Source of the DNA: a virus
Lineage: Duplodnaviria; Heunggongvirae; Uroviricota; Caudoviricetes
Reading direction: 5' to 3' (one strand)
Length of the DNA stretch: 51,277 nucleotides
IMG/VR virus record: IMGVR_UViG_2851955134_000001
Part shown: one piece after another, positions 2,459 through 50,579 of the stretch
Layout of the letters: the number at the start of each line of letters is the position of its first letter
Numbering within the stretch: the first letter of the stretch is position 1
The notes under the pieces: model-generated
Told to the model about the DNA's origin: nothing
Databases searched by the model: none
Seen by the model: the letters and a program-made list of their open reading frames with translations, nothing else
Translations under genes and position numbers: made by a program

Positions 2459-3136
2459 ATGTCCATCATTTTTAATGGACACTATCGTATGAAACACCGG
2501 ACCTGGATCACTGAAGCTTTACGTCTTCACTTTGAAGAACATTTACCCCGGGTTGTGGCCGGGCGTCGCCTGGGTGTACCAAAATCAACAGTTTGCAGTA
2601 TGTTCGTGCGCTTTCGGAGAGCTGGCCTTTCGTGGCCTTTGCCCGCAGGCATGTCGGAGCAGGAACTTGATGCCTGCCTTTACGGACAATTTTCCACGGT
2701 ACCAGTCGTACGTCCTGAAAGCACCGTTATATCCGAAGCCCCCGTGGTAAAAAAACGTCCCCGGCGGCCCAACTTCCCTTATGAGTTTAAAATCGCCTTA
2801 GTGGAACAGTCACTGCAGCCCGGAGCCTGTGTGGCGCAGATCGCCCGGGAAAACGGAATCAACGATAACCTGCTCTTCAACTGGCGCCATCAATACCGGA
2901 AAGGTGGCCTGCTGCCTTCCGGAAAAAATATGCCGGCACTGCTTCCCGTGACGTTAACGCCGGAGCCGGATAATAAAATCCCGGCTCCGGCACAGGAACC
3001 AGAGCAGATAAATACACCGTCCGACAGTCTGTGTTGTGAGCTGGTTCTGCCGGCCGGAACTCTCAGGCTTAAAGGTAAACTGACGCCGGCGTTATTACAG
3101 ACACTTATCCGCGAAATAAAAGGGAGCAGCCACTGA
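2459..3136 (+). CDS. IS66-family accessory protein TnpA (start may be the internal ATG at 2489)
   Basis: First ORF of the IS; stop overlaps the tnpB start (ATGA at 3136). Confidence 0.65.
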   Translation: MSIIFNGHYRMKHRTWITEALRLHFEEHLPRVVAGRRLGVPKSTVCSMFVRFRRAGLSWPLPAGMSEQELDACLYGQFSTVPVVRPESTVISEAPVVKKRPRRPNFPYEFKIALVEQSLQPGACVAQIARENGINDNLLFNWRHQYRKGGLLPSGKNMPALLPVTLTPEPDNKIPAPAQEPEQINTPSDSLCCELVLPAGTLRLKGKLTPALLQTLIREIKGSSH

Positions 3137-3483
3137 TGATATCTCTCCCTGCAGGTTCGCGTATCTGGCTGGTTGCCGGTATCACCGATATGCGAAATGG
3201 CTTTAACGGCCTGGCCTCAAAAGTTCAGAACGTCCTGAAGGATGACCCGTTCTCCGGACACCTGTTCATCTTCCGCGGACGCCGGGGTGACCAGATAAAA
3301 GTGTTGTGGGCTGACAGTGACGGACTGTGCCTCTTCACCAAACGCCTGGAGCGGGGCCGCTTCGTCTGGCCGGTTACCCGTGACGGCAAGGTGCACCTTA
3401 CTCCGGCTCAGTTATCTATGCTTCTTGAAGGTATCAACTGGAAGCACCCGAAACGAACGGAACGCGCTGGCATTCGCATATAA
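3136..3483 (+). CDS. IS66-family TnpB (Orf2)
   Basis: 115 aa with sequence MISLPAGSRIWLVAGITDMRNGFNGL... characteristic of IS66 Orf2, as recalled. Confidence 0.85.
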   Translation: MISLPAGSRIWLVAGITDMRNGFNGLASKVQNVLKDDPFSGHLFIFRGRRGDQIKVLWADSDGLCLFTKRLERGRFVWPVTRDGKVHLTPAQLSMLLEGINWKHPKRTERAGIRI

Positions 3484-3502
3484 CCCGTTGTAAAGTGAGG
3501 AT

Positions 3503-5074
3503 ATGGACACCTCACTTGCTCATGAGAATGCCCGCCTGCGGGCACTGTTGCAGACGCAACAGGACACCATCCGCCAGATGGCGAAATACAACCGCCTGCT
3601 CTCACAGCGGGTGGCGGCTTATGCTTCCGAAATCAACCGGCTGAAGGCGCTGGTTGCGAAACTGCAACGTATGCAGTTCGGTAAAAGCTCAGAAAAACTT
3701 CGTGCAAAAACCGAACGGCAGATACAGGAAGCACAGGAGCGAATCAGCGCACTTCAGGAAGAAATGGCGGAAACGCTGGGTGAGCAATATGACCCGGTAC
3801 TGCCATCCGCCCTGCGCCAGTCTTCAGCCCGTAAACCGTTACCGGCCTCACTTCCCCGTGAAACCCGGGTTATCCGGCCGGAAGAGGAATGCTGTCCTGC
3901 CTGTGGTGGTGAACTCAGTTCTCTGGGATGTGATGTGTCAGAGCAACTGGAGCTTATCAGCAGCGCCTTTAAGGTTATCGAAACACAACGTCCGAAACTG
4001 GCCTGTTGCCGGTGCGACCATATCGTGCAGGCACCGGTGCCTTCAAAACCCATTGCACGCAGTTATGCCGGAGCGGGGCTCCTGGCCCATGTCGTCACCG
4101 GAAAATATGCAGACCATCTGCCGTTATACCGCCAGTCAGAGATATACCGCCGTCAGGGTGTGGAGCTGAGCCGTGCCACACTGGGGCGCTGGACTGGTGC
4201 CGTTGCTGAACTACTGGAGCCGCTGTATGACGTCCTGCGCCAGTATGTGCTGATGCCCGGTAAAGTCCATGCTGATGATATCCCCGTCCCGGTCCAGGAG
4301 CCGGGCAGCGGTAAAACCCGGACAGCCCGGCTGTGGGTCTACGTCCGTGATGACCGTAACGCCGGTTCACAGATGCCCCCGGCGGTCTGGTTCGCGTACA
4401 GTCCGGACCGGAAAGGTATCCATCCACAAAATCACCTGGCCGGTTACAGCGGTGTGCTTCAGGCCGATGCTTACGGTGGTTACCGGGCGTTATACGAATC
4501 CGGCAGAATAACGGAAGCCGCGTGTATGGCTCATGCCCGGAGAAAAATCCACGATGTGCATGCAAGAGCGCCCACCGACATCACCACGGAAGCCCTGCAG
4601 CGTATCGGTGAACTGTATGCCATCGAGGCAGAGGTCCGGGGCTGTTCAGCAGAACAGCGTCTGGCGGCAAGAAAAACCAGAGCCGCGCCACTGATGCAGT
4701 CACTGTATGACTGGATACAGCAACAGATGAAAACACTGTCGCGTCACTCAGATACGGCAAAAGCGTTCGCATACCTGCTGAAACAGTGGGATGCACTGAA
4801 CGTGTACTGCAGTAATGGCTGGGTGGAAATCGACAACAACATCGCAGAGAACGCCTTACGGGGAGTGGCCGTAGGCCGGAAAAACTGGCTCTTCGCGGGT
4901 TCCGACAGCGGTGGCGAACATGCGGCGGTGTTGTACTCGCTGATCGGCACATGCCGTCTGAACAATGTGGAGCCAGAAAAATGGCTGCGTTACGTTATTG
5001 AGCATATTCAGGACTGGCCGGCAAACCGGGTACGCGATCTGTTGCCCTGGAAAGTTGATCTGAGCTCTCAGTAA
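3503..5074 (+). CDS. IS66-family transposase (TnpC)
   Basis: 523 aa; N-terminal leucine-zipper-like region, CxxC zinc motif and C-terminal region typical of IS66 transposases. Confidence 0.9.
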
Positions 5075-5374: not shown

Positions 5375-6037
5375 TCAGTACGCATCATAAATTTCTGCAT
5401 TTATGTAATAACAGAGGTTATTAACAACACCTGAATTATCATTGGGCGCCGCTACGTTATCTTCAGCAAAAGTTGACTGACGCCATAACTGTGAGTTTCT
5501 GGCATTAAAACTGGCGGTATACCAGTAATAACTCTCCCCTTCCTGAACTGTCGTCCACTGGGTACACCCCGGCATTACGGCCACATCATGTCCCACACTG
5601 ATCGGTACATCCTTTTCCCATATTCGCGTCATTTTTACTTCCAGTGGCAGCATTTCCGTGTTCCAGACCACCCTGCCATGACTGTCGCACAACTGTATTC
5701 CCCATTGCGGCCATACATTCACCATGTTGGCAAAAACATAAACAACATATGTGCTGTCCTGTTCCATGCCCGGCTCCTGCCCTGTACCAGCGCTGAAAAT
5801 GTCATACTGCCAGGTACCGTTAAGCTGAACCATTTCACCATGGAAGGACTGATTACCGCTTATCTGTTTAATAAAAATCACGCAACGATAATTCGTCGGC
5901 ACCCCGGTGTCGATAAACTGCATCACCGCATCACGCGCACTCAGTGTGAAATGAAAACGGCGCACAAGGTTCAGTGGCGGCGCAACAGGTGATATCCATT
6001 CTCTCCCCCGCTCATCAGTTAATTTAAGTGCAAACAT
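5375..6037 (-). CDS. hypothetical phage protein in the tail tip region
   Basis: ATG at 6037 with AAGGGGGA RBS; 220 aa; no recognisable motif. Confidence 0.5.
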   Translation of the reverse strand: MFALKLTDERGREWISPVAPPLNLVRRFHFTLSARDAVMQFIDTGVPTNYRCVIFIKQISGNQSFHGEMVQLNGTWQYDIFSAGTGQEPGMEQDSTYVVYVFANMVNVWPQWGIQLCDSHGRVVWNTEMLPLEVKMTRIWEKDVPISVGHDVAVMPGCTQWTTVQEGESYYWYTASFNARNSQLWRQSTFAEDNVAAPNDNSGVVNNLCYYINAEIYDAY

Positions 6038-31711: not shown

Positions 31712-32764
31712 TTATTTCCCCACCAGCTCGTTTATCTCTTTCACTGTCTGATTAAACCGCTCTGACTCAAGCTCAACACCTAAGGCCCGACGCCCCAGCG
31801 CCATTGCTGCTTTTATTGTGGAACCGGATCCCATAAAAAAATCAGCAACCAGATCACCTGGTCGACTACTGGCATTGATTATTTGCCTGAGCATATCCGC
31901 CGGTTTCTCACACGGATGTTTACCCGTGTAGAACTGAACGGGTTTATGCATCCAGACATCGGTATAAGGCACGGAGACTGATACGGAAAAATAGCGCCGG
32001 AGAGATTTAAACTCATCCAGCAATTCAGAATATTTGCGATTCAGTGAATCATAAGATGCCACCAGCTGGTGGTGTGGTTGTTCCAGTTGTTGTTCCTGAA
32101 ACTTCTCTGCCGCTATACGGGAAAACAGTGCCTGTAACTTCCGATAGTCAGCCTCATTCGGCAACTGCCACTGACTGGCACCAAACCAGTGGGAAACCAT
32201 ATTTTTCTTACCTGTGGCTTCGGCAATTTGTTTTGCCGTTATACCCAGTTCGGCACGAGCATCCCTGAAATACGAAATCAGCGGTGCCATTATGTGCTGT
32301 TTGAGTTCCCTTTCTTTTGCTGCATAGCCGTCACTTTTGCCGCGATATGGCCCCTGGTAATGTTCAGCAAACAGAACGCGCTCTGTGGCAGGAAAATATG
32401 CGCGCAGACTTTCTTTATTGCACCCGTTCCATCGTCCGGACGGCTTCGCCCAGATAATGTGGTTCAGCACATTAAAGCGTTCACGCATCATGATTTCGGT
32501 ATCAGATGCCAGACGATGACCGCAGAACAGGTAAAGGCTTCCGGCAGGTTTTAACACCCGCCAGAACTGCGCCAGACACTGATCCAGCCATTTCAGGTAA
32601 TCATCATCGCCCTTCCACTGGTTATCCCAGCCTTCGTGTTTCACTTTAAAGTATGGCGGGTCTGTGACAATCAGATCGACAGAGTTTTCCGGTAAGGTCT
32701 GGATAAATTCCAGGCAATCAGCGTTGATTAACTCACAACTGGATATTTTTACAGTATTAGCCAT
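31712..32764 (-). CDS. DNA methyltransferase (N6-adenine/N4-cytosine family, DPPY motif)
   Basis: DPPY at residues ~35-38 and a C-terminal FxGxG-type AdoMet motif (DFFMGSGST); 350 aa. Confidence 0.8.
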
Positions 32765-32914
32765 AGATCAATAAGCGCTTCTCTGATAGGCTCATACCGC
32801 TTTTGCGCAAAGCAGATGGGCCTGAGGTTTGCTTGTGACCCCAACGCATGAGCAGATGGCTGGCAGGTGCCGCTAACACCCACCAGCCGCCCATTACCAC
32901 AAATTAAAAAGCCT

Positions 32915-33136
32915 TCACTGCGGAAGGCGTCTGTAACAACCGAACTGATAATCTGCCAGGCCCGCCATAACAAGCTGGGTCAGTATTAACTGGCAGCATT
33001 CGCGTGAAAGGTAAGTATTCTGCGCAATCTCCCCGACGGTCGCCGGTTCGGTGACGCTTAATTCATTAAGCACCACTCTGGCGGTTTCTGTCATATCTTG
33101 CTGTTTTAGCATGTCTTTTTCCCTTCTGGTTAACAT
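32915..33136 (-). CDS. small winged-helix-like protein (start uncertain)
   Basis: 73 aa from the internal ATG at 33136 (the track ORF starts at a TTG); HTH-like TVGEIAQNTYLSRECCQLILTQL. Confidence 0.35.
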   Translation of the reverse strand: MLTRREKDMLKQQDMTETARVVLNELSVTEPATVGEIAQNTYLSRECCQLILTQLVMAGLADYQFGCYRRLPQ

Positions 33137-33233
33137 GACATACCAATAACTCTTGTCTAAAAAGCCAGCAAGCTGAAAGACCTGTATTCGCAACCACCAG
33201 CGCGTTTAACGTCCTGTGCTGTTTTTCGGACAC

Positions 33234-33258
33234 AAAAAAACCCGCACGGCGGCGGGTT
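33234..33258 (-). terminator. intrinsic terminator (tR'-like) downstream of the late promoter
   Basis: Minus-strand hairpin ACCCGC-CGCCGT-GCGGGT followed by seven T residues. Confidence 0.65.
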
Positions 33259-33305
33259 GTAAAAAATCTTTTAACGTCAGGTATAAAACGCCCATCGTTA
33301 GTGCG

Positions 33306-33333
33306 AATTTACCACAGATTCGGGAAAAATCAA
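33306..33333 (-). promoter_or_regulatory. candidate late promoter pR' (-35 TTGATT, 16-bp spacer, -10 TAAATT)
   Basis: Sigma70-like hexamers on the minus strand directly downstream of the Q-like gene and ~50 nt upstream of the terminator. Confidence 0.4.
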
Positions 33334-33338
33334 CAACA

Positions 33339-34160
33339 CTATCGCGTTACCCTCTTCAACTGCCGCTCCGCCCATGACTCTTCAATGTCAAACCGAACCA
33401 CCAGCGTATCGTAAAAACGCTTCACTGATTTTTTCCACGTATCAAGAGTGATAGCGCTCGTCACTTTGCATATGGCATTAAACGCCTCTGTTGACGGTAA
33501 TCTTTCATAGCCACGACCACCACAACGCTGGCAGTCTCTGATAACAGGCATACCACGTTTTACCGACTCTTCACGATGAATGGCGACACCACGCCCACGG
33601 CAATCATTACAGGCGGTGGAGACCTCACCCTTTCCCCCGCATTCAGGACAGGCAACTTTTACCACTTCCCGGACTTTTTTCCATTCTTCCCAGTAAGACG
33701 GATACACACCCTTTGTACACTTTGCCCATACCGGCGGTTTACCATCCGGATACTGGACCTTGTTTGTAAAAACTACGCTTTCAATAAATTTTTTCCCACC
33801 GCAACAAGGGCACTGTTTTTTACTCGCTGCACTACGGGCATAATCCTCAAAAGCGTACGAAGCCATAATGCGCATCACTGTCGGTTTTATTTCTGCCGGA
33901 AGTTTTCTCAACGCCGCCACGCGATCGCACCGACTGAGTGCATAATCTGCCAGTAATTCTGTTGCCCGCGTTCTGTCATTCATACTGATGCCCATTTTCC
34001 CCAGGAACGCAGAAAATCCCATCTCAGCCCGGTTTTGTGTCATACCCTGCGCAGCCATCACATCAGTGATGCTCAGCGCATCTTTTGACGTCGAGACGGA
34101 TGCATCAGTCAGGCCTGGCGATTTTGGGGAATAGTATTTCGGTAAATCTTCCAGTTTCAT
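33339..34160 (-). CDS. putative late antiterminator Q with DnaJ-like CxxCxGxG zinc-finger repeats
   Basis: Positioned between rusA and the pR'/tR' signals; contains CPCCGGKK, CPECGGKG, CNDCRGRG and CQRCGGRG motifs. Confidence 0.5.
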   Translation of the reverse strand: MKLEDLPKYYSPKSPGLTDASVSTSKDALSITDVMAAQGMTQNRAEMGFSAFLGKMGISMNDRTRATELLADYALSRCDRVAALRKLPAEIKPTVMRIMASYAFEDYARSAASKKQCPCCGGKKFIESVVFTNKVQYPDGKPPVWAKCTKGVYPSYWEEWKKVREVVKVACPECGGKGEVSTACNDCRGRGVAIHREESVKRGMPVIRDCQRCGGRGYERLPSTEAFNAICKVTSAITLDTWKKSVKRFYDTLVVRFDIEESWAERQLKRVTR

Positions 34161-34543: not shown

Positions 34544-35590
34544 TTACCCGAGCACGCCGGTTGCAAAGGCGTGATCAAGAAAACGAAAAATTAAATCAAT
34601 CTGGGAACCATGCTTTTCTTCAAATGCCAGCGGATCAGCATGAAGTTCATTGTGATGCTCCCGGCACAGCGGTAGCGTAAAAATATCGTGGGATTTTGTT
34701 CCCATTCCGCCCTGACCATGACCAATCAGGTGATGGGGATCGTCGGCTGGCTTACCACAACACGCACACGGCTGTGTCTTTACCCAGCGCGTATATTTCT
34801 CATTTACCCAACGGCGACGTTTAGGTCGCTTCATGAAAGATTCAGGAGACTCCGGATCAACGGCAATGCTGACCACCGTCTTTTCCTGTGGTGGGTTTTG
34901 CTGGTGGGCGTGAGGCAGCGGCGCAAGATTTTTTGTGCGCTGCTTCAGTATGCTGGTGGCGGTCTGCTCTCCCGGTACGATGTCGCTTTCACGGTATACA
35001 GAGCGGATTTTTTCCGCACGCAACCCCAGCGAACGACGTAATACCGCTTCCGGTAGCGCGTCCGCCACCTGATTGCGGACCGCCCACCAGGATAATTCAG
35101 CCAGAGATAATTCACGCTCCTGCGTACCGCTTATTGCGTGACCGATGACGTCAATCATCCATGCTGACAGGTTTTGATGAGCAAGTTGCTCGAGTGATTC
35201 GGATGTCTGGTCACGCAGCTGGTTGTCGCAGTGCCAGCACAACACCATCGCGCCGGTACCGTAACGATGTATGACGATTTCACTGTGATGATAGTCACCA
35301 TGAGGCCACTGGCAGGATTTGACATGACGCAACAGCCAGTCAGACAGTGCCCCAGCGCCGCCAACAGCACGAATCACCCGATCATCGCTGAAAAATGGCA
35401 GTAATGATTTATCCTCCGCCAGCGGCTGGCGAACGGCAGGGACGACTCCGGATGGCAGGCCGCACATACTTTTCGGTTCCGGCTCCACCAGCACTCGAGG
35501 ATTGTGAAATACCGGCATGGATTCACGACCGGGCTTAAGGACCACCAGCCCGAGTTCCGGTACCAGAACAGGTCGAAGTAATACCCGCAC
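34544..35590 (-). CDS. DUF968-like nin-region protein with C-terminal HNH-like motif
   Basis: GTG start with GGAGGT RBS; C-terminal CACCGKPADDPHHLIGHG...LCREHHNELH. Confidence 0.55.
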   Translation of the reverse strand: MRVLLRPVLVPELGLVVLKPGRESMPVFHNPRVLVEPEPKSMCGLPSGVVPAVRQPLAEDKSLLPFFSDDRVIRAVGGAGALSDWLLRHVKSCQWPHGDYHHSEIVIHRYGTGAMVLCWHCDNQLRDQTSESLEQLAHQNLSAWMIDVIGHAISGTQERELSLAELSWWAVRNQVADALPEAVLRRSLGLRAEKIRSVYRESDIVPGEQTATSILKQRTKNLAPLPHAHQQNPPQEKTVVSIAVDPESPESFMKRPKRRRWVNEKYTRWVKTQPCACCGKPADDPHHLIGHGQGGMGTKSHDIFTLPLCREHHNELHADPLAFEEKHGSQIDLIFRFLDHAFATGVLG

Positions 35591-36592: not shown

Positions 36593-36748
36593 TTACTCCT
36601 CAGGTTCGTAAGCTGTGAAGACAGCGACCTCCGTCTGGCCGGTTCGGATTCGTACCTCGCAGAGGTCTTTCCTCGTTACCAGTGCCGTCACTATGACGGT
36701 TAAACAGATGACGATCAGGGCGATTAACATCGCCTTTTGCTGCTTCAT
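36593..36748 (-). CDS. hok: Hok/Gef-family type I toxin
   Basis: 51-aa MKQQKAMLIALIVICLTVIVTALVTRKDLCEVRIRTGQTEVAVFTAYEPEE recognised as Hok family. Confidence 0.85.
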   Translation of the reverse strand: MKQQKAMLIALIVICLTVIVTALVTRKDLCEVRIRTGQTEVAVFTAYEPEE

Positions 36749-36984
36749 AGCCTGCTTCTCCTTGCCTTTCGGCGCGTAAGAGGCTAACCTACGTTTGTGA
36801 AGCATAGATTGGGCCTCAGATTAATGTTAAGCGTCTTGCAGGACGCGTAATGTTAACTGGGGCTTTTATCTATCTGCCGTTGGTGTTCATGCCCGAGGCA
36901 GATAGCCTCAAGCACCCGCAGCAATTCTACTTAACTCACGTCACCTCGCCAATATAAAATCAATCAGAAAGGTGCCCCATAAAA

Positions 36985-37650
36985 TCACTCCTTCTCTTCT
37001 TTACCGTAGTGGAGTTGGCCAATTTTTATAAGAGGGCGTCCCTGAGATTTGCGGTGTAGATTGGTATCGCGCAGAGAATACACACAGCCACAATATTCCT
37101 GCTGATAGAATTTTTCGCGCTTGCTGATTTCAATCATACGGGACGAGCCGCCCTGCTTGCGCCAGTTATAATCCCAGTACACCATACCCGGATAATGCGC
37201 AACAGCTCGCCGCCCACACTCGTTAACCTGCTGCATATTTTTCCAGCGTGAAATGCCCAGTGAACTGCTGATCACACTGAAACCATTTTCAGCAGCGTAT
37301 AACGCTGTCCGCTCAAAACGCATGTCAAAACACATGGTACAACGGATCCCCCTCTCAGGCTCCCATTCCATTCCTTTGGCACGTTCAAACCAGTTGTCGG
37401 TGTCGTAATCAGCATCGATAAACGGCACGCCGTGTTGTTCAGCAAAGCGAATATTTTCATCCTTACGAATTAAATACTCTTTCTGAGGATGAATGTTCGG
37501 GTTGTAGAAAAAGATGGTGTAGTCGATTCCCGAGGCCTGAAGCGCCTCCATCACTTCACCGGAACATGGAGCACAGCAAGAGTGCAGTAGTAGTTTGTTT
37601 GCCCCGTTCGGGAGCTCCAATTTAGGCCGTTTGAAATCAGCAATAGTCAT
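36985..37650 (-). CDS. QueH-like (DUF208) putative epoxyqueuosine reductase
   Basis: [11 protein letters not shown] motif near the N-terminus plus downstream RCTMC and EYCGCVYS cysteine motifs, recalled as DUF208/QueH signatures. Confidence 0.6.
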
Positions 37651-42616: not shown

Positions 42617-43500
42617 TAGCTAACCAACGAAGCTAAGGTTGGTAATTAAGGAGTTCTCCACGGGTGAGGTGGAGTACGTGCGCCGGACACGGGTGAGCAT
42701 CCGGCACTGACAGTTTACTGAAAGGATATTTCCCTGAAAAGTCAGACCATAACGCGAAAGCGCACGGCGAGGTAGCTGGTTCATAGATAGCCTGTCGTTA
42801 AATTTTCGTCGACCGTGCGCTTCCGGTTGTGGCAACCCGCGAAATGGTGCGGCGGTAAGTATGGCGGGGTTATTTCTTCCCCGTTGAGGACACCGGGTTG
42901 TCAGGTTGACCATGCGCCTGAGTGACAACCCCGCTGCAACGCCATCTGTTATCAATTTTCTGGTGACGTTTGGCGGTATCAGTTTTACTCCGTGACTGCT
43001 CTGCCGCCCTTTTTAAAGTGAATTTTGTGATGTGGTGAATGCGGCTGATCGCACGTGGAACAGTTAAAACCAAAAACAGTGTTATGGGTGGATTCTCTGT
43101 ATCCGGCGTTAATTGTTAACTGGTTAACGTCACCTGGAGGCACCCTGGAGGCACCAGGCACCGCATCAACAAAGTTCACTTCGGTGATGAAAGGTAAGAG
43201 AAAATGTTGAATGTAGCTATTGAAAACCAGTACGGGTGGAATTATAGTGCACCTGCACCTCATAAACCGGGTGCCGGGCGTGGAAACCCGAAGTCAAACG
43301 TAGCGCACAACCGCGCTCAGGCGGTTTTTTTATGCGTGAAGCACAGCCACATTCAGATTATGGTGGGGCGTGCAGGGCAGCCGCAAGGCTGGCCGGGTTC
43401 TACGTTGACCGGTATTTCCACCCCTGTACGTCTCACCACCATTATGGTCGTGGAAAGCCTCGGTGGTGAGTTATCAATACTCAACGTGGAGGCTGCCATT
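42617..43500 (+). other. ~880-bp ORF-free, hairpin-rich segment inside the early-left operon (candidate structured RNA / regulatory leader)
   Basis: No plus-strand ORF of 60 aa or more; multiple stable stems, e.g. gggttgtca...tgacaaccc, gcgcacgg...ccgtgcgc, cgggg-ttatttctt-ccccg. Confidence 0.4.
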
Positions 43501-44441: not shown

Positions 44442-46895
44442 ATGAGCACTGATAAAGAAACTTTTGCGCTATATTGCGAAGCTAAAAATGACAAAGTCAG
44501 AAAACGCCTTGGGATTAAAGGTGGTTTTTACTGGACTACAGCAAAAAAATTATCTGTTGCCATCTCCCGCTGCATTACCGCAATGGATGATAACGATTAT
44601 GATGAAGACGACTTTAAAAAACCTGTTCGCGTCCATTTGCCCGTTGTTGATGACCTTCCACCGGAAGGCGTGTTTGATACCGAATTCTGTAACCGGTATG
44701 AAAAAGGCGGCGAAGATGGCATCACAATGATATTTATCGCGCCTCCGCCATCCGCGCAGGACAAACCAGCCAGCACTGACAACACCAATGTTAATGGCGA
44801 AGACATGACTGAGATTGAGGAGAATATGCTTCTGCCGGTTTCAGGTCAGATTCTGCCTGTTCGCTGGCTGGCGCAACACGGCGGCGAAAAACCAGTAACG
44901 CACGTTTCGCGGGATGAACTGCGCTCATTACATAACGCACAGGAAGAAAAACTTCCCGCCGTTACCGCGCTGGCCATCTCAAATAAAGCAGCGCAACTCG
45001 AACCGCTGGAGATTCGGGATTTGTACAAACTGGTGCGGGACACTGACAAAGTTTTTCCCGCCCCCGTAAATTCAGACCTGGGACTGATGACCTCCTTCAT
45101 CGAAGCATACCTGGACGCTGACTACACTGATCGTGGTCTGCTTACAAAAGAGTGGATGAAAGGAAATCGTGTTTCTCGCATCAGTCGCACACCATCCGGC
45201 GCTAACGCTGGCGGCGGTATCCTTACCGATCGCGGCGAAGGTTTTGTGCATGATAATGCGTCAATGGCATTCGATGTTGCTACAGGAAAACTGGCTCGTT
45301 CGATGGATGTGGATATTTACAACATGCATCCTTCACATACCAGACGTGTTAACGAAATTATCGCAGAAAATGATCCCTGTTTCTCCGTCTTCCTTAAGGC
45401 TTTTCTGAACATGCCAGGCGGGATGGATTATTCCCGCGCCATCGTGGTTGCCTCCGTGAAAGAAGCACCGGTTGGTATAGAGGCTATGCCCCAGCGCGTC
45501 ACCGAATACCTGAATAAAGTGCTGACCGAAACCGATCATGCCAACCCTGATCCGGAAATCGTGGATATTGCCTGCGGTCGTTCCTCTGCCCCAATGCCGC
45601 AGCGTGTAACAGAAGAAGGAAAACAGGATGATGAAGAAAAACCGCAACCGTCTGGCGCAATGGCAGATGAACAGCCAACGACTGAAACAGTGGAACCGGA
45701 TACAACTGAACATCATCCGGACACGCAGCCGCTGGATGCTCAGCCGCAGGTGAATTCTGTTGATGCGAAATATCAGAAACTGCGGGCAGAACTCCATGAA
45801 GCTAGGAAAAACATTCCGCCCAAAAATCCTGTCGATGCAGACAAATTACTGGCGGCCTCGCGTGGTGAGTTCGTTGAAGGGATTAGCGACCCGAATGATC
45901 TGAAATGGGTTAAGGGAGTCCAGACTCGCGATTCAGTGAACCAGAACCAGCAAGAAACGGAACAGAACGACCAGAAAGCGGAACAAAACAGCCAAAATGC
46001 GTTACAAAACGAGCCAGAAACGAAACAACCTGAGCCAGTAGCGCAACAGGAACCGGAAAAAGTCTGCACCGCCTGCGGTCAGACCAGCGGCGGCAACTGC
46101 CCTGATTGTGGCTCAGTAATGGGTGACGCAACATACCAGGAAACATTCAATGGAGAAAATCAGGCTGAATCTCAGGAAAAAAATCCGGAGGAAACGGAAG
46201 GCACTGAGCATCCGCACAAGGAGAACACTGGCGGCGCTCAGGGCCACGCCAGCGATAATAAAACTGGCGAAACAGAAAATTCCTTAATTAAGATGAACGG
46301 TCATCGTGAAATCACATCCACCAGCAGAGTATGGAATCACCTGTCAGTCGACCTTGAAACAATGGGAGCCAACACCAATGCACCCATAGTAGTTATTGGT
46401 GCGGTTTTCTTCGACCCGGAAACAGGGGAAATCGGGCCGGTATTTTATATCGTTATCAGCCTGACTGACGCAATGAATACAGGGGCTGTTCCTGATGGTG
46501 GCACCATCGAATGGTGGCTGAAGCAGTCCAGCGAAGCCAGAGCTGCCATTTTAACTGACCAGGTAAAAATGAAAGATGCCCTTTTGCGTTTTCGGCAATT
46601 CGTCAATGAACACTCTGATGAAAAATTCGTTCAGGTGTGGGGTAATGGCGCAACGTTCGATAACGCAATTTTGCGCACCTCATACGAACGTCTGGACATC
46701 CCCTGTCCGTGGCATTACAGCAACGATCGTGATGTACGCACAATCGTTGAGATGGGGAAAATCACAGACTTCAATGCCAGAAGCGTAATTCCATTCGAAG
46801 GCGTGCGCCATAATGCTCTGGATGACGCTCTTCACCAGGCAAAATACGTAACAGCCACTATACAAAAACTGATCCCGAATCAGGCTGATTTTTAA
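44442..46895 (+). CDS. large exonuclease: RecE-like N-terminal region, zinc ribbon, C-terminal DEDDh 3'-5' exonuclease domain
   Basis: C-terminal motifs DLET (Exo I), [12 protein letters not shown] (Exo II), HNALDDALH (Exo III); [16 protein letters not shown] zinc ribbon; N-terminal part resembles recalled RecE-type exodeoxyribonuclease VIII. Confidence 0.7.
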
Positions 46896-46953: not shown

Positions 46954-47157
46954 ATGAGCAGCTTATTTTTAACCGAAGATGAATTGCTAATATTAACGGG
47001 CTGCAAATATGCAAGCCACCAGCGAAAATGGTTAATGGAAAACGGGCTTCCGTTCTATACCAATCGTAGTGGCAAACCGATTGTCAGCCGGGATCTATTT
47101 ACCTGCAATAAAACTTTACCACCACGCGAGGTAGAGCCGAATTTTGGTGCGATCTGA
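46954..47157 (+). CDS. excisionase-like protein
   Basis: 67 aa; stop overlaps the int start (TGATG); immediately upstream of int. Confidence 0.55.
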   Translation: MSSLFLTEDELLILTGCKYASHQRKWLMENGLPFYTNRSGKPIVSRDLFTCNKTLPPREVEPNFGAI

Positions 47158-48182
47158 TGGGAAGACGAAGGAAAAATCCTGAACACGAAAAATTACCTCC
47201 AAATGTATACCCAAATAAATATAGTTATGTATGGAAACCAACATCCAGAGAATCTGTAACACTAACCGCCATCAAGGATGGTTTAGCTGCTTTATGGAAA
47301 AAGTATGAGGAAACTGTAAATAATCGCGATCGTGCAATGACATTCGGTCGCTTGTGGGAAAAATTCCTCGCCAGCGCCTGTTACAGTGACCTTAGTCCAA
47401 GAACACAAAAAGATTATCTGCAACATCAAAAAAAGTTGCTTGCCGTATTCGGTAAGGTACCAGCGGATTCCATAAAACCAGAACACATCCGTCGATACAT
47501 GGACAAAAGAGGGGAACAGAGTAAAACGCAAGCCAACCATGAAAAAAGCAGTATGTCCCGTGTTTACAGTTGGGGGTATGAGCGAGGGTACGTGAAGGCT
47601 AACCCATGTGCAGGTGTAAGTAAATTCAAGGCCAAAAACCGCGAACGATATGTAACCGACAAAGAATACCAGGCAGTATTAAGCGTGGCACCCCTTCCTG
47701 TTTTTATCGCAATGGAAATTGCCTATCTGTGTGCAGCGAGGGTTTCCGATGTGTTATCGCTGAAATGGGAGCAGATTGGAAACGACGGGATCTTTATCCA
47801 GCAAGGGAAAACAGGGAAAAAACAGATAAAAGCATGGAGTCCACGATTACAGGCAGCGGTCGAAAAAGCAAAACAGTTACCAAAATCCGCCTATGTGATC
47901 AGCAATCAATACGGCAACCGATATATGTACAAAGGCTTTAACGAAATGTGGGTAGAAGCAAGAAATCGCGCAGGCAAAGTTTCAGGTATTTTAACCGACT
48001 TCACCTTTCATGATCTGAAGGCGAAAGGAATTTCAGACTATGAAGGAAGCAGCCGGGATAAGCAACTTTTCTCTGGTCACAAAACCGAAGGGCAAGTGCT
48101 AATCTATGACCGGAAGGTTAAAGTTTCACCAACACTTGATGTCCCGTTACCTGAAAATATTCCAAGAAAATATTCCAAGTAA
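47157..48182 (+). CDS. tyrosine integrase (lambda Int-like)
   Basis: N-terminus MGRRRKNPEHEKLPPNVY like lambda Int MGRRRSHERRDLPPNLY; C-terminal ...FHDLKAKG... and LIYDRK Tyr region; adjacent to a tRNA. Confidence 0.85.
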   Translation: MGRRRKNPEHEKLPPNVYPNKYSYVWKPTSRESVTLTAIKDGLAALWKKYEETVNNRDRAMTFGRLWEKFLASACYSDLSPRTQKDYLQHQKKLLAVFGKVPADSIKPEHIRRYMDKRGEQSKTQANHEKSSMSRVYSWGYERGYVKANPCAGVSKFKAKNRERYVTDKEYQAVLSVAPLPVFIAMEIAYLCAARVSDVLSLKWEQIGNDGIFIQQGKTGKKQIKAWSPRLQAAVEKAKQLPKSAYVISNQYGNRYMYKGFNEMWVEARNRAGKVSGILTDFTFHDLKAKGISDYEGSSRDKQLFSGHKTEGQVLIYDRKVKVSPTLDVPLPENIPRKYSK

Positions 48183-48234
48183 TTCCAAGTGTGATTTTTG
48201 TCACTGACTTAATGATGTATAAGTGATTGAATTT

Positions 48235-48324
48235 TGGCGGAGAGAGGGGGATTTGAACCCCCGGTGGAGTTGCCCCCACTCCGGTTTTCGAGACCGGTCC
48301 GTTCAGCCGCTCCGGCATCTCTCC
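48235..48324 (-). tRNA. serU: tRNA-Ser (anticodon CGA)
   Basis: Reverse complement reads GGAGAGATGCCGGAGCGGCTGAACGGACCGGTCTCGAAAACCGG...GGTTCAAATCCCCCTCTCTCCGCCA with long variable arm and CGA anticodon; K-12 serU neighbours mtfA. Confidence 0.9.
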
Positions 48325-48417
48325 GTTCAGATGGTTGCCATGATGCCAGGAAATTTGGCATTTTAACAGTCCCTGTCCGTGCAATTTTGTTCAAGTGACG
48401 AGTTTGCGAGCAAAACG

Positions 48418-49215
48418 ATGATTAAGTGGCCCTGGAAAGTACAAGAATCAGCACATCAAACTGCCCTTCCCTGGCAGGAAGCACTATCGATCCCCCTTTT
48501 AACGTGTCTGACGGAACAGGAACAAAGCAAATTAGTCACTCTTGCCGAACGTTTTTTACAGCAAAAACGGCTTGTTCCTTTACAGGGCTTTGAGCTGAAT
48601 TCATTAAGAAGCTGCCGGATAGCACTTCTATTTTGCCTGCCCGTTCTGGAGTTAGGACTGGAATGGCTGGATGGTTTTCATGAAGTCTTAATTTATCCTG
48701 CGCCATTTGTGGTCGATGATGAATGGGAAGACGATATCGGTCTGGTGCATAACCAACGTATTGTTCAGTCAGGTCAGAGCTGGCAGCAAGGGCCTATCGT
48801 TTTGAACTGGTTGGATATACAAGATTCTTTTGATGCTTCTGGTTTTAACCTGATTATTCATGAAGTCGCTCATAAGCTGGACACCCGTAACGGCGATCGC
48901 GCCAGCGGAGTTCCCTTTATTCCGTTGCGTGAGGTTGCTGGCTGGGAACACGATCTTCATGCTGCAATGAACAACATTCAGGAAGAAATCGAATTGGTTG
49001 GCGAGAATGCGGCGAGCATCGATGCTTATGCTGCCAGTGATCCTGCTGAATGTTTTGCCGTACTTTCTGAATATTTCTTTAGCGCCCCAGAACTTTTTGC
49101 TCCTCGTTTCCCTTCATTGTGGCAACGTTTCTGCCAATTTTATCAACAAGATCCTTTGCAGAGACTGCATCACGCTAATGATACAGACTCGTTTTCGGCG
49201 ACGAATGTTCATTAA
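48418..49215 (+). CDS. mtfA: Mlc titration factor A
   Basis: [23 protein letters not shown]... recognised as E. coli MtfA (YeeI); HEVAH zinc-peptidase motif. Confidence 0.9.
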
Positions 49216-49268
49216 TTAACAACTTTGCAGATTAATTAACCAATTGAAATGACTTATGAAATTTAGTG

Positions 49269-49297
49269 TTGACAGACAAGGTACCGCTAAGTAATAT
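49269..49297 (+). promoter_or_regulatory. candidate sigma70 promoter of tRNA-Asn (-35 TTGACA, 17-bp spacer, -10 TAATAT)
   Basis: Consensus-like hexamers ~20 bp upstream of the tRNA 5' end. Confidence 0.5.
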
Positions 49298-49315
49298 GCG
49301 CCCCGTTCTCACGAT

Positions 49316-49391
49316 TCCTCTGTAGTTCAGTCGGTAGAACGGCGGACTGTTAATCCGTATGTCACTGGTTCGAGTCCAGTCAGAGGAGCCA
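49316..49391 (+). tRNA. asnT: tRNA-Asn (anticodon GTT)
   Basis: TCCTCTGTAGTTCAGTCGGTAGAACGGCGGACTGTTAATCCGT...GGTTCGAGTCCAGTCAGAGGAGCCA, 76 nt. Confidence 0.9.
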
Positions 49392-49537
49392 ATTTTCTGT
49401 TTTCTTGCATCCTTGCGAATCTTTATCTGATGTTGATTCAACAGGTTAGTGTGAAAACTCTTCTCGGTGCATTTTGATTTTACCCTACGCATCGGGAAAA
49501 ATTGGTGGTCAAATCTGGGGTCAGGTTAGTTCGATAA

Positions 49538-50524
49538 TGGAGTGACCCCCATATATCCCTTACCGACGCAAAAATCCGCACCCTCAAGCCTTCTGATAAA
49601 CCCTTTAAAGTCTCCGATTCTCACAGTCTGTATCTGCGGGTCAAGCCGGGTGGCTCCCGCCACTGGTATCTCAAATACCGTATTAGCGGTAAAGAATCCC
49701 GCATTGCGCTGGGTGCCTATCCAGCCATCTCCCTGTCTGATGCGCGACAGCAACGTGAAGGTATCCGTAAAATGCTGGCGCTGAATATCAACCCGGTACA
49801 GCAGCGGGCTGCTGTACGTGGCTCACGAACACCGGAGAAAGTTTTTAAAAACGTGGCGCTGGCGTGGCATAAAAGTAACAGGAAATGGTCGCAGAACACC
49901 GCCGACCGTCTGCTTGCCAGCCTGAACAATCACATCTTTCCGGTCATCGGGAACCTACCTGTATCAGAACTTAAACCCCGTCATTTCATTGACCTGCAGA
50001 AAGGGATCGAGGAAAAAGGTCTGCTGGAGGTTGCGTCCCGCACACGGCAGCACCTGAGTAACATAATACGCCATGCGGTCCATCAGGAGTTAATCGATAC
50101 GAACCCTGCAGCAAACCTTGGCGGCGTGACCACACCTCCTGTCAGACGGCACTATCCTGCCCTGCCGCTGGAGCGGCTGCCTGAACTGCTTGAACGTATT
50201 GGGGCATATCATCAGGGCCGTGAACTGACCCGGCATGCCGTTCTGCTGATGCTGCATGTGTTCATTCGCTCCAGTGAACTGCGTTTCGCCCGCTGGTCAG
50301 AGATTGATTTCACAAACCGAGTCTGGACGATACCCGCGACGCGAGAACCCATTATTGGCGTGCATTATTCCGGCCGCGGGGCAAAAATGCGAATGCCGCA
50401 TATCGTCCCCCTCTCAGAACAGTCCATCGCCATTCTGAAACAGATTAAGGATATCACCGGTAATAATGAACTGATCTTCCCCGGCGACCATAACCCGTAT
50501 AAGCCAATGTGTGAAAACACGGTC
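49538..50524 (+). pseudogene. P4-type integrase remnant beside tRNA-Asn: no canonical start codon and 3' end truncated by IS1
   Basis: Frame encodes ...SLTDAKIRTLKPSDKPFKVSDSHSLYLRVKPGGSRHWYLKYRISGK... (P4-integrase-like N-terminus); ATA where the ATG is expected (49553); ORF runs into the IS1 left end at 50525. Confidence 0.65.
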
Positions 50525-50579
50525 GGTGATGCTGCCAACTTACTGATTTAGTGTATGATGGTGTTTTTGAGGTGCTCCA

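What the first reader, a model, noticed from the sequence alone, without database searches (positions are those of the whole stretch)
31712..32764. Orphan DNA methyltransferase between the late promoter and the lysis genes
A DPPY-motif N6A/N4C methyltransferase with no adjacent restriction endonuclease suggests phage anti-restriction by self-methylation or epigenetic effects on the host.
Basis: partly seen in the sequence, partly recalled or inferred. Interest (0 to 1): 0.35.

Follow-up and report, generated by a model that had tools for sequence, protein, structure and literature searches.

The report
Prophage M.EcoGII-type adenine methyltransferase
The gene is real and intact, but it is a close relative of M.EcoGII, a well-known phage enzyme that methylates every adenine regardless of sequence and stays silent until the prophage turns lytic; the only new item is a conserved folded RNA leader directly in front of it.

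Summary
The ORF at 31712-32764 (minus strand, 350 aa) is a genuine beta-class N6/N4 DNA methyltransferase, with DPPY at aa 35-38 and FxGxG at aa 310-314. It is 82% identical over its full length to M.EcoGII. It is 88% identical to the reconstructed ancestor Anc291. M.EcoGII is shown to be non-site-specific on DNA, and both enzymes showed no motif on RNA. The nearest site-specific relative, M.PflMI, is only about 27% identical to M.EcoGII. The gene lies downstream of a Q antiterminator gene, a lambda-like late promoter with its pause element, and a tR'-like terminator. It lies upstream of the lysis cassette and is bracketed by two more terminator-like hairpins. No restriction gene is nearby. 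The likeliest role is Q-dependent, late-lytic hypermethylation of progeny phage DNA. Host epigenetic effects in the lysogen are unlikely, because three published methylome studies found close homologues silent. The family is known and very common: related DNA occurs in 4729 of 5426 complete E. coli genomes. One thing appears undescribed. A ~130-nt non-coding leader abuts the start codon in 140 of 142 loci whose methyltransferase is at least 60% identical. It is far more conserved than synonymous sites and folds into two hairpins.

The parts
33339..34160 (-). Q-family late antiterminator gene (273 aa)
   Evidence: Pfam PF03589 Antiterm, E = 3.5e-51, plus DnaJ-type zinc fingers. RefSeq annotates the 100%-identical copy in E. 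coli TUM1886 as an antitermination protein.
33306..33333 (-). Late promoter PR'-like: -35 TTGATT (33333..33328), 16-nt spacer, extended -10 TGG+TAAATT (33314..33306)
   Evidence: Read from the sequence. The -10 hexamer TAAATT is identical to that of lambda PR'. It was too weak for the generic scan, which needs 9 of 12 matches. Assignment as the late promoter is an inference from position and from the match to lambda.
33291..33299 (-). AACGATGGG, a -10-like promoter-proximal pause element
   Evidence: Same 9-mer at the same 6-nt distance from TAAATT as in lambda PR' (window; lambda 'TAAATTtgactcAACGATGGG'). Its role as the sigma70-dependent pause site where Q loads rests on my own knowledge of lambda.
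33232..33258 (-). tR'-like intrinsic terminator (7-bp GC-rich stem plus T7)
   Evidence: Terminator scan. The phage SfV record annotates a rho-independent terminator at the equivalent place. It would give a short PR' RNA of about 65 nt, analogous to lambda 6S RNA and StxS (PMC7547250).
32915..33112 (-). Small winged-helix-like ORF (65 aa from MLKQQDM; alternative upstream starts at 33136 and 33193)
   Evidence: PHROG 331, E = 3.7e-37. Sources name it 'TrmB family' or 'DprA-like winged helix'. All 25 aligned members give weak DprA_WH and TrmB Pfam hits, best 6.8e-6. dN/dS is 0.1-0.3. It lies upstream of the methyltransferase in 80 of 84 close loci but in only 31 of 47 species-level loci that carry the leader.
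32901..32928 (-). Terminator-like hairpin overlapping the stop codon of the small ORF
   Evidence: Terminator scan: 6-bp stem followed by TTTTTAATTT.
32765..32895 (-). Conserved non-coding leader abutting the methyltransferase ATG. Hairpin P1 is 32894..32848 (about 20 bp with a 4-nt 3' internal loop). A second irregular hairpin is 32841..32765, and its base pairs the 6 nt just upstream of the AUG. An invariant GATC lies 3 nt upstream of the ATG.
   Evidence: nhmmer finds it in 140 of 142 loci with a methyltransferase at least 60% identical, in 0 of 23 loci below 60%, and with no strong hit elsewhere in 1.28 Mb; one weak partial match (E = 2e-4) lies about 210 nt upstream of the 58%-identical methyltransferase of Vibrio locus L155. 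It is 79-84% identical between genera where 4-fold sites of the gene are 32-37% identical. P1 folds in all 40 distinct variants. 94% of cells pair against 26-44% in slid controls, and 7 pairs show double changes against 2.8 in shuffles. MFE z-scores are about -2.7. No Rfam hit. It is not coding: the ORF from its ATG is only 7 codons in 23 of 47 sequences.
31712..32764 (-). M.EcoGII-family beta-class N6-adenine methyltransferase (350 aa). DPPY at nt 32662..32651, helix-turn-helix target recognition domain at about nt 32287..32054, FxGxG at nt 31837..31823.
31679..31705 (-). Terminator-like hairpin between the methyltransferase stop and the holin start
   Evidence: Terminator scan. In related loci the stem is conserved and variation falls in or next to the loop, whatever gene follows. 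The SfV record annotates a rho-independent terminator here.
29762..31644 (-). Lysis cassette: S21-type holin/antiholin 31644..31429, DUF1327/YdfR 31425..31114, lysozyme 30753..30220, Rz 30238..29762 with embedded Rz1 30003..29821
   Evidence: Pfam PF04971, PF07041 and PF00959; ORF list; RefSeq annotation of relatives.

Best explanation
The ORF encodes a sequence-non-specific, SAM-dependent N6-adenine methyltransferase of the M.EcoGII family, carried in the late operon of a lambdoid prophage. In the lysogen it is kept off. The late promoter fires, but RNA polymerase stops at the tR'-like terminator, and a second terminator-like hairpin lies before the gene. After induction, Q-modified polymerase reads through all of them. 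The enzyme is then made together with the lysis and morphogenesis proteins and methylates adenines throughout the replicating phage DNA before packaging. Progeny genomes thus carry m6A inside the recognition sites of most adenine-dependent Type I, II and III restriction systems of the next host.

A conserved structured leader with no Shine-Dalgarno sequence probably limits or times translation of this toxic enzyme.

Shown here: the gene is intact, belongs to this family, has the motifs and domain layout, sits in this position, lacks a restriction partner, is under purifying selection, and carries a conserved leader. Taken from the literature on homologues: non-specificity, toxicity and silence in lysogens. 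Inferred: Q-dependent read-through, the anti-restriction benefit, and the leader's function.
For: Identity and motifs:
- Pfam, PHROG and PADLOC all call a methyltransferase. Both catalytic motifs are intact and in beta-class order.
- The protein is 82% identical (287/349) to M.EcoGII as printed in Table S1 of PMC11551740.
- It is 88% identical to Anc291, which methylates DNA 2.4-fold better than M.EcoGII and shows no motif on RNA.
- It is 83% identical to the phage 1720a-02 enzyme, which Murray et al. name as very similar to M.EcoGII. That enzyme is 93% identical to the printed M.EcoGII sequence, which validates the printed sequence.
- The nearest enzyme with confirmed site-specific activity, M.PflMI, is 27% identical to M.EcoGII.

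Domain layout:
- The alignment to M.EcoGII has no gap through the helix-turn-helix target recognition domain (77% identical).
- It also has no gap through the charged linkers, which are absent from M.PflMI.
- The dimer-interface segments are 36 of 39 identical.
- dN/dS is 0.12.

Expression context:
- The order on the minus strand is Q gene, lambda-like PR' with an identical -10 hexamer and AACGATGGG pause element, a tR'-like terminator, two further terminator-like hairpins, then the lysis genes.
- PR' is constitutively active and constitutively terminated at tR' in lysogens (PMC7547250).

Behaviour of homologues:
- They are silent in lysogens and deleterious when expressed (PMC5778455; PMC4659465, RT-PCR; PMC6602927; PMC12707154).
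- M.EcoGII methylation blocked all 12 restriction enzymes tested.

Conserved gene order:
- The same order, Q then methyltransferase then lysis, recurs with different Q families and different lysis cassettes in Escherichia, Shigella, Salmonella, Klebsiella and Lelliottia.
Against: - No activity or specificity data exist for this allele. Its target recognition domain differs from M.EcoGII at 18 of 78 positions, so a sequence preference cannot be excluded.
- The anti-restriction benefit has not been demonstrated in a phage infection even for M.EcoGII. The authors say only that it 'appears likely'.
- Heavily m6A-modified DNA should be a target for methyladenine-dependent Type IV systems such as Mrr. 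This rests on my own knowledge, though the expression host used for M.EcoGII was mrr-deleted. The net benefit is therefore host-dependent.
- The gene has no recognisable ribosome-binding site, and its start region is predicted to be base-paired. Output may be very low.
- The prophage carries an IS5-type and an IS66-type insertion and may not be inducible.
Confidence: 0.75

Rival explanations
1. It is a site-specific orphan adenine (or N4-cytosine) methyltransferase that is active in the lysogen and changes host gene expression.
For: Beta-class enzymes include many site-specific ones, such as M.RsrI, MboIIA and CcrM. The target recognition domain is only 77% identical to that of M.EcoGII. PR' is constitutively active, so some read-through is conceivable.
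Against: Identity is 82-88% to enzymes reported as non-site-specific, against 27% for the nearest site-specific relative. Scores against the curated models for YhdJ (111 vs cut-off 292) and CcrM (73 vs 830) are far below threshold. Homologues gave no signal or no transcript in three lysogen methylome studies. Two terminator-like hairpins lie between the promoter and the gene. Constitutive expression is harmful.
Confidence: 0.07
2. The enzyme's main substrate in the lytic cycle is not phage DNA for anti-restriction. It could be RNA (host or phage transcripts, rRNA or tRNA) or host DNA, as a host-takeover or anti-defence device. Alternatively, methylation could serve phage replication or packaging.
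For: M.EcoGII methylates RNA, single-stranded DNA and DNA:RNA hybrids. Other phage methyltransferases serve packaging, for example the P1 Dmt enzyme at pac sites. The gene is co-transcribed with late genes rather than early ones, which leaves limited time to modify all progeny DNA.
Against: RNA activity is about 100-fold lower than DNA activity for M.EcoGII (V0 0.12 vs 11.12; Table S3). In vivo about 85% of DNA adenines can be modified. No data link the family to packaging.
Confidence: 0.12
3. It is the modification half of a restriction-modification or other defence system whose nuclease partner is an unrecognised neighbour. Candidates are the DUF968/HNH protein (34544..35590) and the two unknown genes at 27582..29186.
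For: DUF968 carries an HNH-like motif and PHROG 96 is labelled 'HNH endonuclease'. It is present in 78 of 84 related loci.
Against: DUF968 lies in the early nin region, upstream of Q. It occurs without the methyltransferase in the K-12 Qin prophage as ydfU. The methyltransferase occurs without it in Lelliottia. Neither DUF968 nor the other eight neighbours scanned hit PADLOC. The 27582..29186 pair reaches 80% coverage in only 27 genomes, against 1820 for the methyltransferase region. A context-free methyltransferase has no defined site for a partner to spare.
Confidence: 0.02
4. It is an inactive relic in a decaying prophage.
For: Two IS elements interrupt the prophage. There is no Shine-Dalgarno sequence.
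Against: The ORF is full length with intact motifs. dN/dS is 0.12. Alleles 95-99% identical occur in at least 600 viral contigs. The leader is conserved.
Confidence: 0.04

Closest known systems
M.EcoGII and M.EcoGI (E. coli O104:H4 C227-11 prophages; Murray et al. 2018, PMC5778455)
   Same: Beta-class order of DPPY, then helix-turn-helix target recognition domain, then FxGxG. Length is 349-350 aa. Identity is 82% over the full length with no indel in the recognition domain or linkers. Prophage-borne and orphan.
   Different: About 60 substitutions, 18 of them in the 78-residue recognition domain. Activity of this allele is untested. The published work does not describe the promoter and terminator context or the conserved leader.
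Reconstructed ancestor Anc291 of the M.EcoGII clade (Ochiai et al. 2024, PMC11551740)
   Same: 88% identical, so closer to the window protein than M.EcoGII is. Shown to methylate DNA and RNA, with no motif found on RNA.
   Different: A synthetic inferred sequence, not a natural gene.
Annotated phage homologues: SfV orf48, mEp460 gp53, cdtI, phiP27, 1720a-02, Stx2a/c/d phages; also M.EcoMV of ST131
   Same: Same gene in the same slot between Q and the lysis or stx region. 83-96% protein identity. M.EcoMV is not transcribed in the lysogen.
   Different: Different Q types, lysis cassettes and inserted cargo genes (tRNAs, stx, nanS-p). Two alleles of the upstream small ORF.
M.PflMI (CCANNNNNTGG), the nearest relative with confirmed site-specific activity
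   Same: Same overall predicted fold, including a helix-turn-helix recognition domain.
   Different: Only about 27% identical to M.EcoGII, and lacks the charged interdomain linker. The window protein keeps that linker.
Phage Mu mom
   Same: A works-like analogy only. [quoted passage not shown] From my own knowledge, it is expressed late and its translation is held back by an mRNA stem-loop that the small upstream-encoded Com protein opens.
   Different: Unrelated protein and chemistry: Mom makes an acetamido-type adenine modification, not methylation. Here the small upstream ORF is not obligatory, and no translational activator is identified.
Alpha-class promiscuous adenine methyltransferases (M.HaeV, Hia5-type; Drozdz et al. 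2012, cited in PMC5778455)
   Same: Near context-free adenine methylation by phage-related enzymes.
   Different: Opposite motif order (FxGxG, then recognition domain, then DPPY) and unrelated recognition domain.

Membership tests
Beta-class N6A/N4C amino-methyltransferases (Pfam PF01555) | Profile match above the curated threshold | tested here: met
   147.1 bits against a cut-off of 26.7, covering profile positions 1-220 of 221.
Beta-class N6A/N4C amino-methyltransferases (Pfam PF01555) | Catalytic motif IV (D/N/S)PP(Y/F) N-terminal, SAM-binding motif I FxGxG C-terminal, recognition domain between them | tested here: met
   DPPY at aa 35-38, FMGSG at aa 310-314, and an insert of about 125 aa between the core halves.
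M.EcoGII family (non-specific adenine methyltransferases of enterobacterial prophages) | High full-length identity to M.EcoGII/M.EcoGI, well inside the clade separated from site-specific M.PflMI | tested here: met
   82% to M.EcoGII, 88% to Anc291, 83% to the 1720a-02 enzyme. M.PflMI is 27% identical to M.EcoGII.
M.EcoGII family (non-specific adenine methyltransferases of enterobacterial prophages) | Four-helix helix-turn-helix recognition domain (aa 160-237), charged interdomain linkers, and conserved dimer interface (aa 97-110 and 116-140) | tested here: met
   No gap in the alignment across aa 135-259. Recognition domain 77% and linkers 72-73% identical. Interface 36 of 39 identical. This is by sequence only; no structure was predicted here.
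M.EcoGII family (non-specific adenine methyltransferases of enterobacterial prophages) | Methylates adenine in any sequence context | not testable with these tools
   Needs enzyme assay or methylome sequencing. Inferred from homology only.
M.EcoGII family (non-specific adenine methyltransferases of enterobacterial prophages) | Prophage-encoded and silent in the lysogen | tested here: inconclusive
   The prophage location is met: the window runs from a tail-fibre gene at its left edge to an integrase, with the gene in the late operon behind terminators. Silence itself cannot be measured here; it is reported for homologues.
Type II restriction-modification system | Cognate restriction endonuclease gene adjacent to the methyltransferase | tested here: not met
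   Neighbours are the winged-helix ORF, Q, holin, DUF1327 and lysozyme. Nine neighbours scanned gave no PADLOC hit. DUF968/HNH is distributed independently of the methyltransferase.
YhdJ (NF008572) and CcrM (NF050803) equivalogs | Score above the NCBIfam equivalog cut-off | tested here: not met
   111 vs 292 bits for YhdJ and 72.8 vs 830 bits for CcrM.
Controller (C-protein)-regulated methyltransferase | Small helix-turn-helix regulator gene obligatorily linked upstream of the methyltransferase, with its operator | tested here: not met
   The small winged-helix ORF is absent from 16 of 47 species-level loci that keep both the leader and the methyltransferase. Unrelated genes sit there instead. 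The AlphaFold2 model was too poor (pLDDT 61.7) for fold comparison.
Known RNA families (Rfam 15) for the leader | Covariance-model match | tested here: not met
   No hit at gathering thresholds across the window, and none at E <= 1 in 31600..33400 apart from two chance-level hits elsewhere.

The most novel reading that the evidence does not exclude
The ~130-nt sequence between 32895 and 32765 may be an undescribed cis-regulatory RNA leader specific to the M.EcoGII clade. It consists of a ~20-bp hairpin with an asymmetric internal loop, followed by a second long hairpin. The second hairpin pairs the nucleotides just upstream of an AUG that has no Shine-Dalgarno sequence. The leader would gate translation or processing of a toxic, context-free methyltransferase. 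Possible mechanisms are RNase III-type processing, autoregulation by the RNA-binding enzyme itself, or a late phage factor. This would explain how prophages carry such an enzyme safely.
Probability: 0.5. Interest if true: 0.45.

Novelty: already known. Interest (0 to 1): 0.25.

Why it matters
The methyltransferase itself changes little. It adds one more allele to a family that is already in REBASE-based annotations, is a widely used laboratory reagent, and recurs in most E. coli genomes. Identifying it correctly still matters for annotation. [quoted passage not shown] That predicts no methylome signature in the lysogen and heavy m6A in virion DNA.

The leader is the part that could matter. It is conserved across more than 20 named genera (nearly all Enterobacterales) at a level that neutral sites do not approach. 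It is a testable candidate for the mechanism that keeps the enzyme harmless until lysis. It is also relevant to anyone expressing M.EcoGII-type enzymes from native fragments.

Tried and rejected
- **Small winged-helix ORF as an obligatory partner or controller of the methyltransferase.** Rejected. It is present in 80 of 84 close loci but in only 31 of 47 species-level loci that keep the leader. Unrelated genes replace it in the rest.
- **Structure of that ORF.** AlphaFold2 with 25 sequences gave pLDDT 61.7, too low for a fold search, so none was run.
- **Peptide-coding leader (MGGWWVL...).** Rejected. The ORF stops after 7 codons in 23 of 47 sequences, and frames differ among the rest.
- **Known riboswitch or leader, including the idea of a SAM riboswitch.** No Rfam hit.
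- **A sigma70 promoter inside the leader or just upstream of the gene.** The scan found none. The only promoter-like site lies inside the coding region.
- **DUF968/HNH, or the unknown pair at 27582..29186, as a cognate nuclease.** Rejected on distribution and for lack of any defence-family hit.
- **Lambda orf-64, in the same slot after PR', as a homologue of the small ORF.** The sequences are unrelated on inspection.
- **Literature search for the leader's core sequence.** No paper contains it.
- **Supplement of the M.EcoGII paper.** Not held. The M.EcoGII sequence was taken from the machine-read Table S1 of PMC11551740, which may contain a few reading errors, and was cross-checked against phage 1720a-02.
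- **Not attempted:** structure prediction of the methyltransferase. It was judged unnecessary at 82-88% identity to characterised enzymes.
Full report

Yes. The ORF listing gives a single 350-aa ATG-started ORF at exactly 31712..32764 on the minus strand.

- It matches Pfam PF01555 (N6_N4_Mtase) at 147 bits, E = 9.6e-43, over the whole profile.
- It matches PHROG DNA-methyltransferase families at E = 1e-104.
- It matches a PADLOC Type II methyltransferase model at E = 5.8e-154.
- The nearest solved structures are beta-class amino-methyltransferases: 8urk/9c3u, M.RsrI, MboIIA, CcrM and DpnA, with E from 7e-24 to 1e-14.

DPPY is at residues 35-38 (nt 32662..32651). FxGxG is at residues 310-314 (nt 31837..31823). 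A ~125-residue insert lies between the two core halves, which is the beta-class order. Against 68 other alleles the gene has a median dN/dS of 0.12, so it is a maintained gene and not a relic.

**2. What is it precisely?**

The DNA is typical of lambdoid phages and prophages. A 2-kb query around the gene matches 109 phage records, including mEp460, cdtI, SfV, phiP27, 1720a-02 and many Stx2 phages. It also matches 4729 of 5426 complete E. coli genomes, with a median of two places per genome.

Murray et al. 2018 (PMC5778455) described M.EcoGII, a 349-aa beta-class enzyme from an O104:H4 prophage.

- It methylates adenine in any context.
- It is not expressed in the lysogen.
- It is harmful when expressed constitutively.
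- It has 'a very similar MTase' in phage 1720a-02 and other enterobacterial phages.

The M.EcoGII sequence is printed in Table S1 of Ochiai et al. 2024 (PMC11551740).

| Comparison with the window protein | Identity |
|---|---|
| M.EcoGII, full length | 82% (287/349) |
| Phage 1720a-02 enzyme | 83% |
| Reconstructed ancestor Anc291 | 88% |

The 1720a-02 enzyme is 93% identical to the printed M.EcoGII. This validates the machine-read sequence. Anc291 and the deeper ancestors all methylate DNA and RNA, and no motif was found on RNA. The nearest enzyme with confirmed site-specific activity, M.PflMI, is only 27% identical to M.EcoGII and lacks the charged interdomain linker.

Using the domain limits from that paper, identity to M.EcoGII by region is as follows.

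| Region | Identity |
|---|---|
| N-terminal catalytic half | 94% |
| Helix-turn-helix recognition domain (aa 160-237) | 77% |
| Two linkers | 72-73% |
| Dimer-interface segments | 36 of 39 residues |

There is no indel anywhere between residues 135 and 259. The protein therefore lies well inside the non-specific clade. It fails the curated NCBIfam thresholds for YhdJ and CcrM.

**3. Context and likely expression**

The whole window is a lambdoid prophage.

- An integrase lies next to tRNA-Ser at the right end.
- Then come a RecE-like gene, DicF/isrK/C4 RNAs, replication genes and a nin region with hok/sok, QueH, DUF968 and RusA.
- Q is at 33339..34160 (PF03589).
- The small ORF, the methyltransferase and the lysis cassette follow.
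- An IS5-type insertion comes next, then terminase, head and tail genes, gpJ, an IS66 insertion and the tail fibre.

Immediately after the Q stop codon the minus strand reads TTGATT, then 16 nt ending in TGG, then TAAATT, cgcact, AACGATGGG. Lambda PR' reads TTGACT, 17 nt, TAAATT, tgactc, AACGATGGG. The -10 hexamer, the 6-nt spacing and the 9-nt pause element are identical.

From my own knowledge of lambda, that element is the sigma70-dependent pause at which Q engages RNA polymerase. A strong terminator-like hairpin follows at 33258..33232. This would give a PR' RNA of about 65 nt, analogous to lambda 6S RNA and to StxS of Stx phages. In Stx phages PR' is constitutively active and constitutively terminated in lysogens (PMC7547250).

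Two further terminator-like hairpins bracket the methyltransferase.

- One is at the end of the small ORF, at 32928..32901.
- The other lies between the methyltransferase stop and the holin start, at 31705..31679.

Across related loci the second hairpin keeps its stem, and variation falls in or next to the loop, whatever gene follows. The SfV record annotates rho-independent terminators at the two equivalent places. The scan found 7 terminator-like sites in this 2.2-kb stretch against 2.6 expected.

The arrangement fits Q-dependent, late-only expression. That last step is inference; no expression data exist for this locus.

**4. Is it an orphan?**

Yes, as far as sequence can show. The immediate neighbours are the 65-aa winged-helix-like ORF, Q, an S21-type holin, DUF1327/YdfR and a lysozyme. 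None of the nine neighbours scanned hits a PADLOC defence model.

Two candidate nucleases were considered and rejected.

- **DUF968/HNH protein, 1.8 kb upstream.** It belongs to the early nin region. It occurs without the methyltransferase in the K-12 Qin prophage as ydfU. The methyltransferase occurs without it in a Lelliottia prophage.
- **Two unknown genes at 27582..29186.** They reach 80% coverage in only 27 genomes, against 1820 for the methyltransferase region.

A context-free methyltransferase also has no defined site that a cognate endonuclease could be kept away from.

**5. Mechanism and rivals**

The best-supported reading has five parts.

- The enzyme is a SAM-dependent, context-free N6-adenine methyltransferase.
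- It is off in the lysogen.
- It is made late after Q antitermination.
- It methylates progeny phage DNA.
- The modification blocks restriction in the next host.

M.EcoGII methylation blocked all twelve restriction enzymes tested. The authors and a 2025 review propose exactly this role.

The host-epigenetics option is not supported. M.EcoGI and M.EcoGII gave no signal in O104:H4. M.EcoMV, which is 99% identical to M.EcoGI, was predicted inactive in ST131 from RT-PCR. The two homologues in O111 gave no motif.

Other roles remain open: RNA methylation, host takeover, or help with replication or packaging. The enzyme does act on RNA and single-stranded DNA, and the anti-restriction benefit has never been shown in an infection. 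An expected cost is sensitivity to methyladenine-dependent Type IV restriction; this point rests on my own knowledge.

**6. What I found beyond the finding**

*(a) The small upstream ORF (32915..33112).*

- It is a real gene. It matches PHROG 331, has dN/dS of 0.1-0.3, and occurs as two alleles about 53% identical.
- It has weak but consistent winged-helix signals.
- It accompanies the methyltransferase in 80 of 84 close loci, and in Klebsiella, Salmonella and Lelliottia.
- It is missing from 16 of 47 species-level loci, where other genes sit instead. It is therefore a frequent neighbour and not an obligatory partner.

*(b) The ~150-nt spacer between that ORF and the methyltransferase ATG.* This is the most interesting item.

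- **Conservation.** Between the window and the Salmonella or Lelliottia copies, 4-fold degenerate sites of the methyltransferase are 32-37% identical, which is saturated. The spacer is 79% identical, and up to 84-85% between other inter-genus pairs.
- **Distribution.** An nhmmer profile of its 3' 134 nt finds it ending at the ATG in 140 of 142 loci whose methyltransferase is at least 60% identical. These include Escherichia, Enterobacter, Citrobacter, Klebsiella, Kluyvera, Kosakonia, Mixta, Erwinia, Buttiauxella, Rosenbergiella and Tatumella. It finds none in the 23 loci below 60%. It finds no strong hit elsewhere in 1.28 Mb; the only stray match is weak and partial (E = 2e-4) and lies about 210 nt upstream of a 58%-identical Vibrio methyltransferase.
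- **Not coding.** The ORF from its ATG is 7 codons long in 23 of 47 sequences.
- **Structure.**
  - All 40 distinct variants fold the same ~20-bp hairpin with a 4-nt 3' internal loop, with dG about -30 kcal/mol in most. G-C to A-U changes are compensated in the divergent copies.
  - Two diverged full leaders independently give the same two-domain MFE structure. The second hairpin pairs the nucleotides just before the AUG, with z about -2.7.
  - On a 48-sequence MAFFT alignment, 94% of cells pair against 26-44% in slid controls. Seven pairs carry double changes against 2.8 in shuffles, a value reached by 1 of 500 shuffles.
  - Covariation power is limited because the element is 84% identical on average. 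The start-proximal helix has only one-sided changes.
- **Other features.** There is no Shine-Dalgarno sequence, and a GATC 3 nt upstream of the ATG is invariant.
- **Prior description.** Rfam has no match. No paper in the library contains its core sequence. The M.EcoGII paper does not mention upstream elements.

I regard it as a candidate cis-regulatory leader that limits or times translation of a toxic enzyme. The mechanism is open. RNase III-type processing, autoregulation by the RNA-binding enzyme, and a trans-acting late factor are all speculation.

**7. Verdict**

- The gene belongs to a known, common and biochemically characterised family, so its novelty is 'already known' and its interest is low.
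- The conserved leader raises the score slightly and is the one lead worth an experiment.

Noticed in passing
window 32765..32895 (-): A highly conserved, non-coding, structured leader abuts the methyltransferase ATG. It is present in 140 of 142 loci with a methyltransferase at least 60% identical, and there is no strong hit elsewhere. It is 79-84% identical where synonymous sites are saturated. It forms two hairpins, has no Shine-Dalgarno sequence, has an invariant GATC 3 nt upstream of the ATG, and gives no Rfam hit.
   Followed up: yes
window 32915..33112 (-): A small winged-helix-like ORF (65 aa, PHROG 331, annotated 'TrmB family' or 'DprA-like WH') usually lies about 150 nt upstream of the methyltransferase. 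It has two alleles about 53% identical and is under purifying selection. It is absent from about one third of species-level loci. Function unknown.
   Followed up: partly
window 33232..33333 (-): The late promoter has a -10 hexamer and an AACGATGGG pause element identical to lambda PR'. It is followed by a terminator about 65 nt downstream. It should produce a short constitutive RNA in the lysogen, analogous to lambda 6S RNA or StxS. Whether that RNA has an sRNA function is unknown.
   Followed up: partly
window 36985..37650 (-): A full-length QueH-type epoxyqueuosine reductase homologue (PF02677, E = 9.6e-66; PHROG 3217) lies in the prophage nin region. RefSeq annotates the same gene in other E. 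coli prophages. A tRNA-modification enzyme carried by a phage is odd, and I did not explain it.
   Followed up: no
window 36743..36917 (-): A sok antitoxin RNA (Rfam RF01794, 111 bits) lies next to where hokD is annotated in related prophages. This indicates a hok/sok type I toxin-antitoxin module in the nin region.
   Followed up: no
window 42958..43443 (+): A cluster of three known prophage sRNAs: DicF (42958..43009), isrK (43255..43331) and C4 antisense RNA (43356..43443).
   Followed up: no
window 26464..27444 (-) and 2459..5074 (+): There are two insertion sequences inside the prophage. One is an IS5-family DDE transposase between the lysis region and terminase. The other is an IS66-family unit with TnpB and TnpC matched (the first ORF, 2459..3136, was not scanned), lying between a 220-aa membrane-protein ORF (5375..6037) that follows gpJ and the tail-fibre gene. 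The prophage may be defective.
   Followed up: no
window 27582..29186 (-): Two genes of unknown function lie in a low-GC (39%) patch downstream of bor and Rz: 164 aa (PHROG 3054) and 343 aa (PHROG 2571). They reach 80% coverage in only 27 complete E. coli genomes and look like a rare cargo ('moron') pair.
   Followed up: partly
window 44442..46895 (+): An 817-aa early-region protein combines an exodeoxyribonuclease VIII (RecE-like) domain with a C-terminal Rv2179c-like 3'-5' exoribonuclease domain.
   Followed up: no
window 47157..50551: The prophage integrase (47157..48182) abuts tRNA-Ser(cga) (48235..48324, minus strand). Further right lie an M90 peptidase gene, tRNA-Asn (49316..49391) and a second integrase-like ORF that looks partial (49772..50551). 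This suggests a tRNA-associated integration hotspot with remnants of another element.
   Followed up: no
window 34544..35590 (-): A DUF968 protein with an HNH-like C-terminus (PHROG 96, 'HNH endonuclease') is present in 78 of 84 related loci and in K-12 Qin as ydfU. Its function in lambdoid nin regions is unknown. It is not linked to the methyltransferase.
   Followed up: partly
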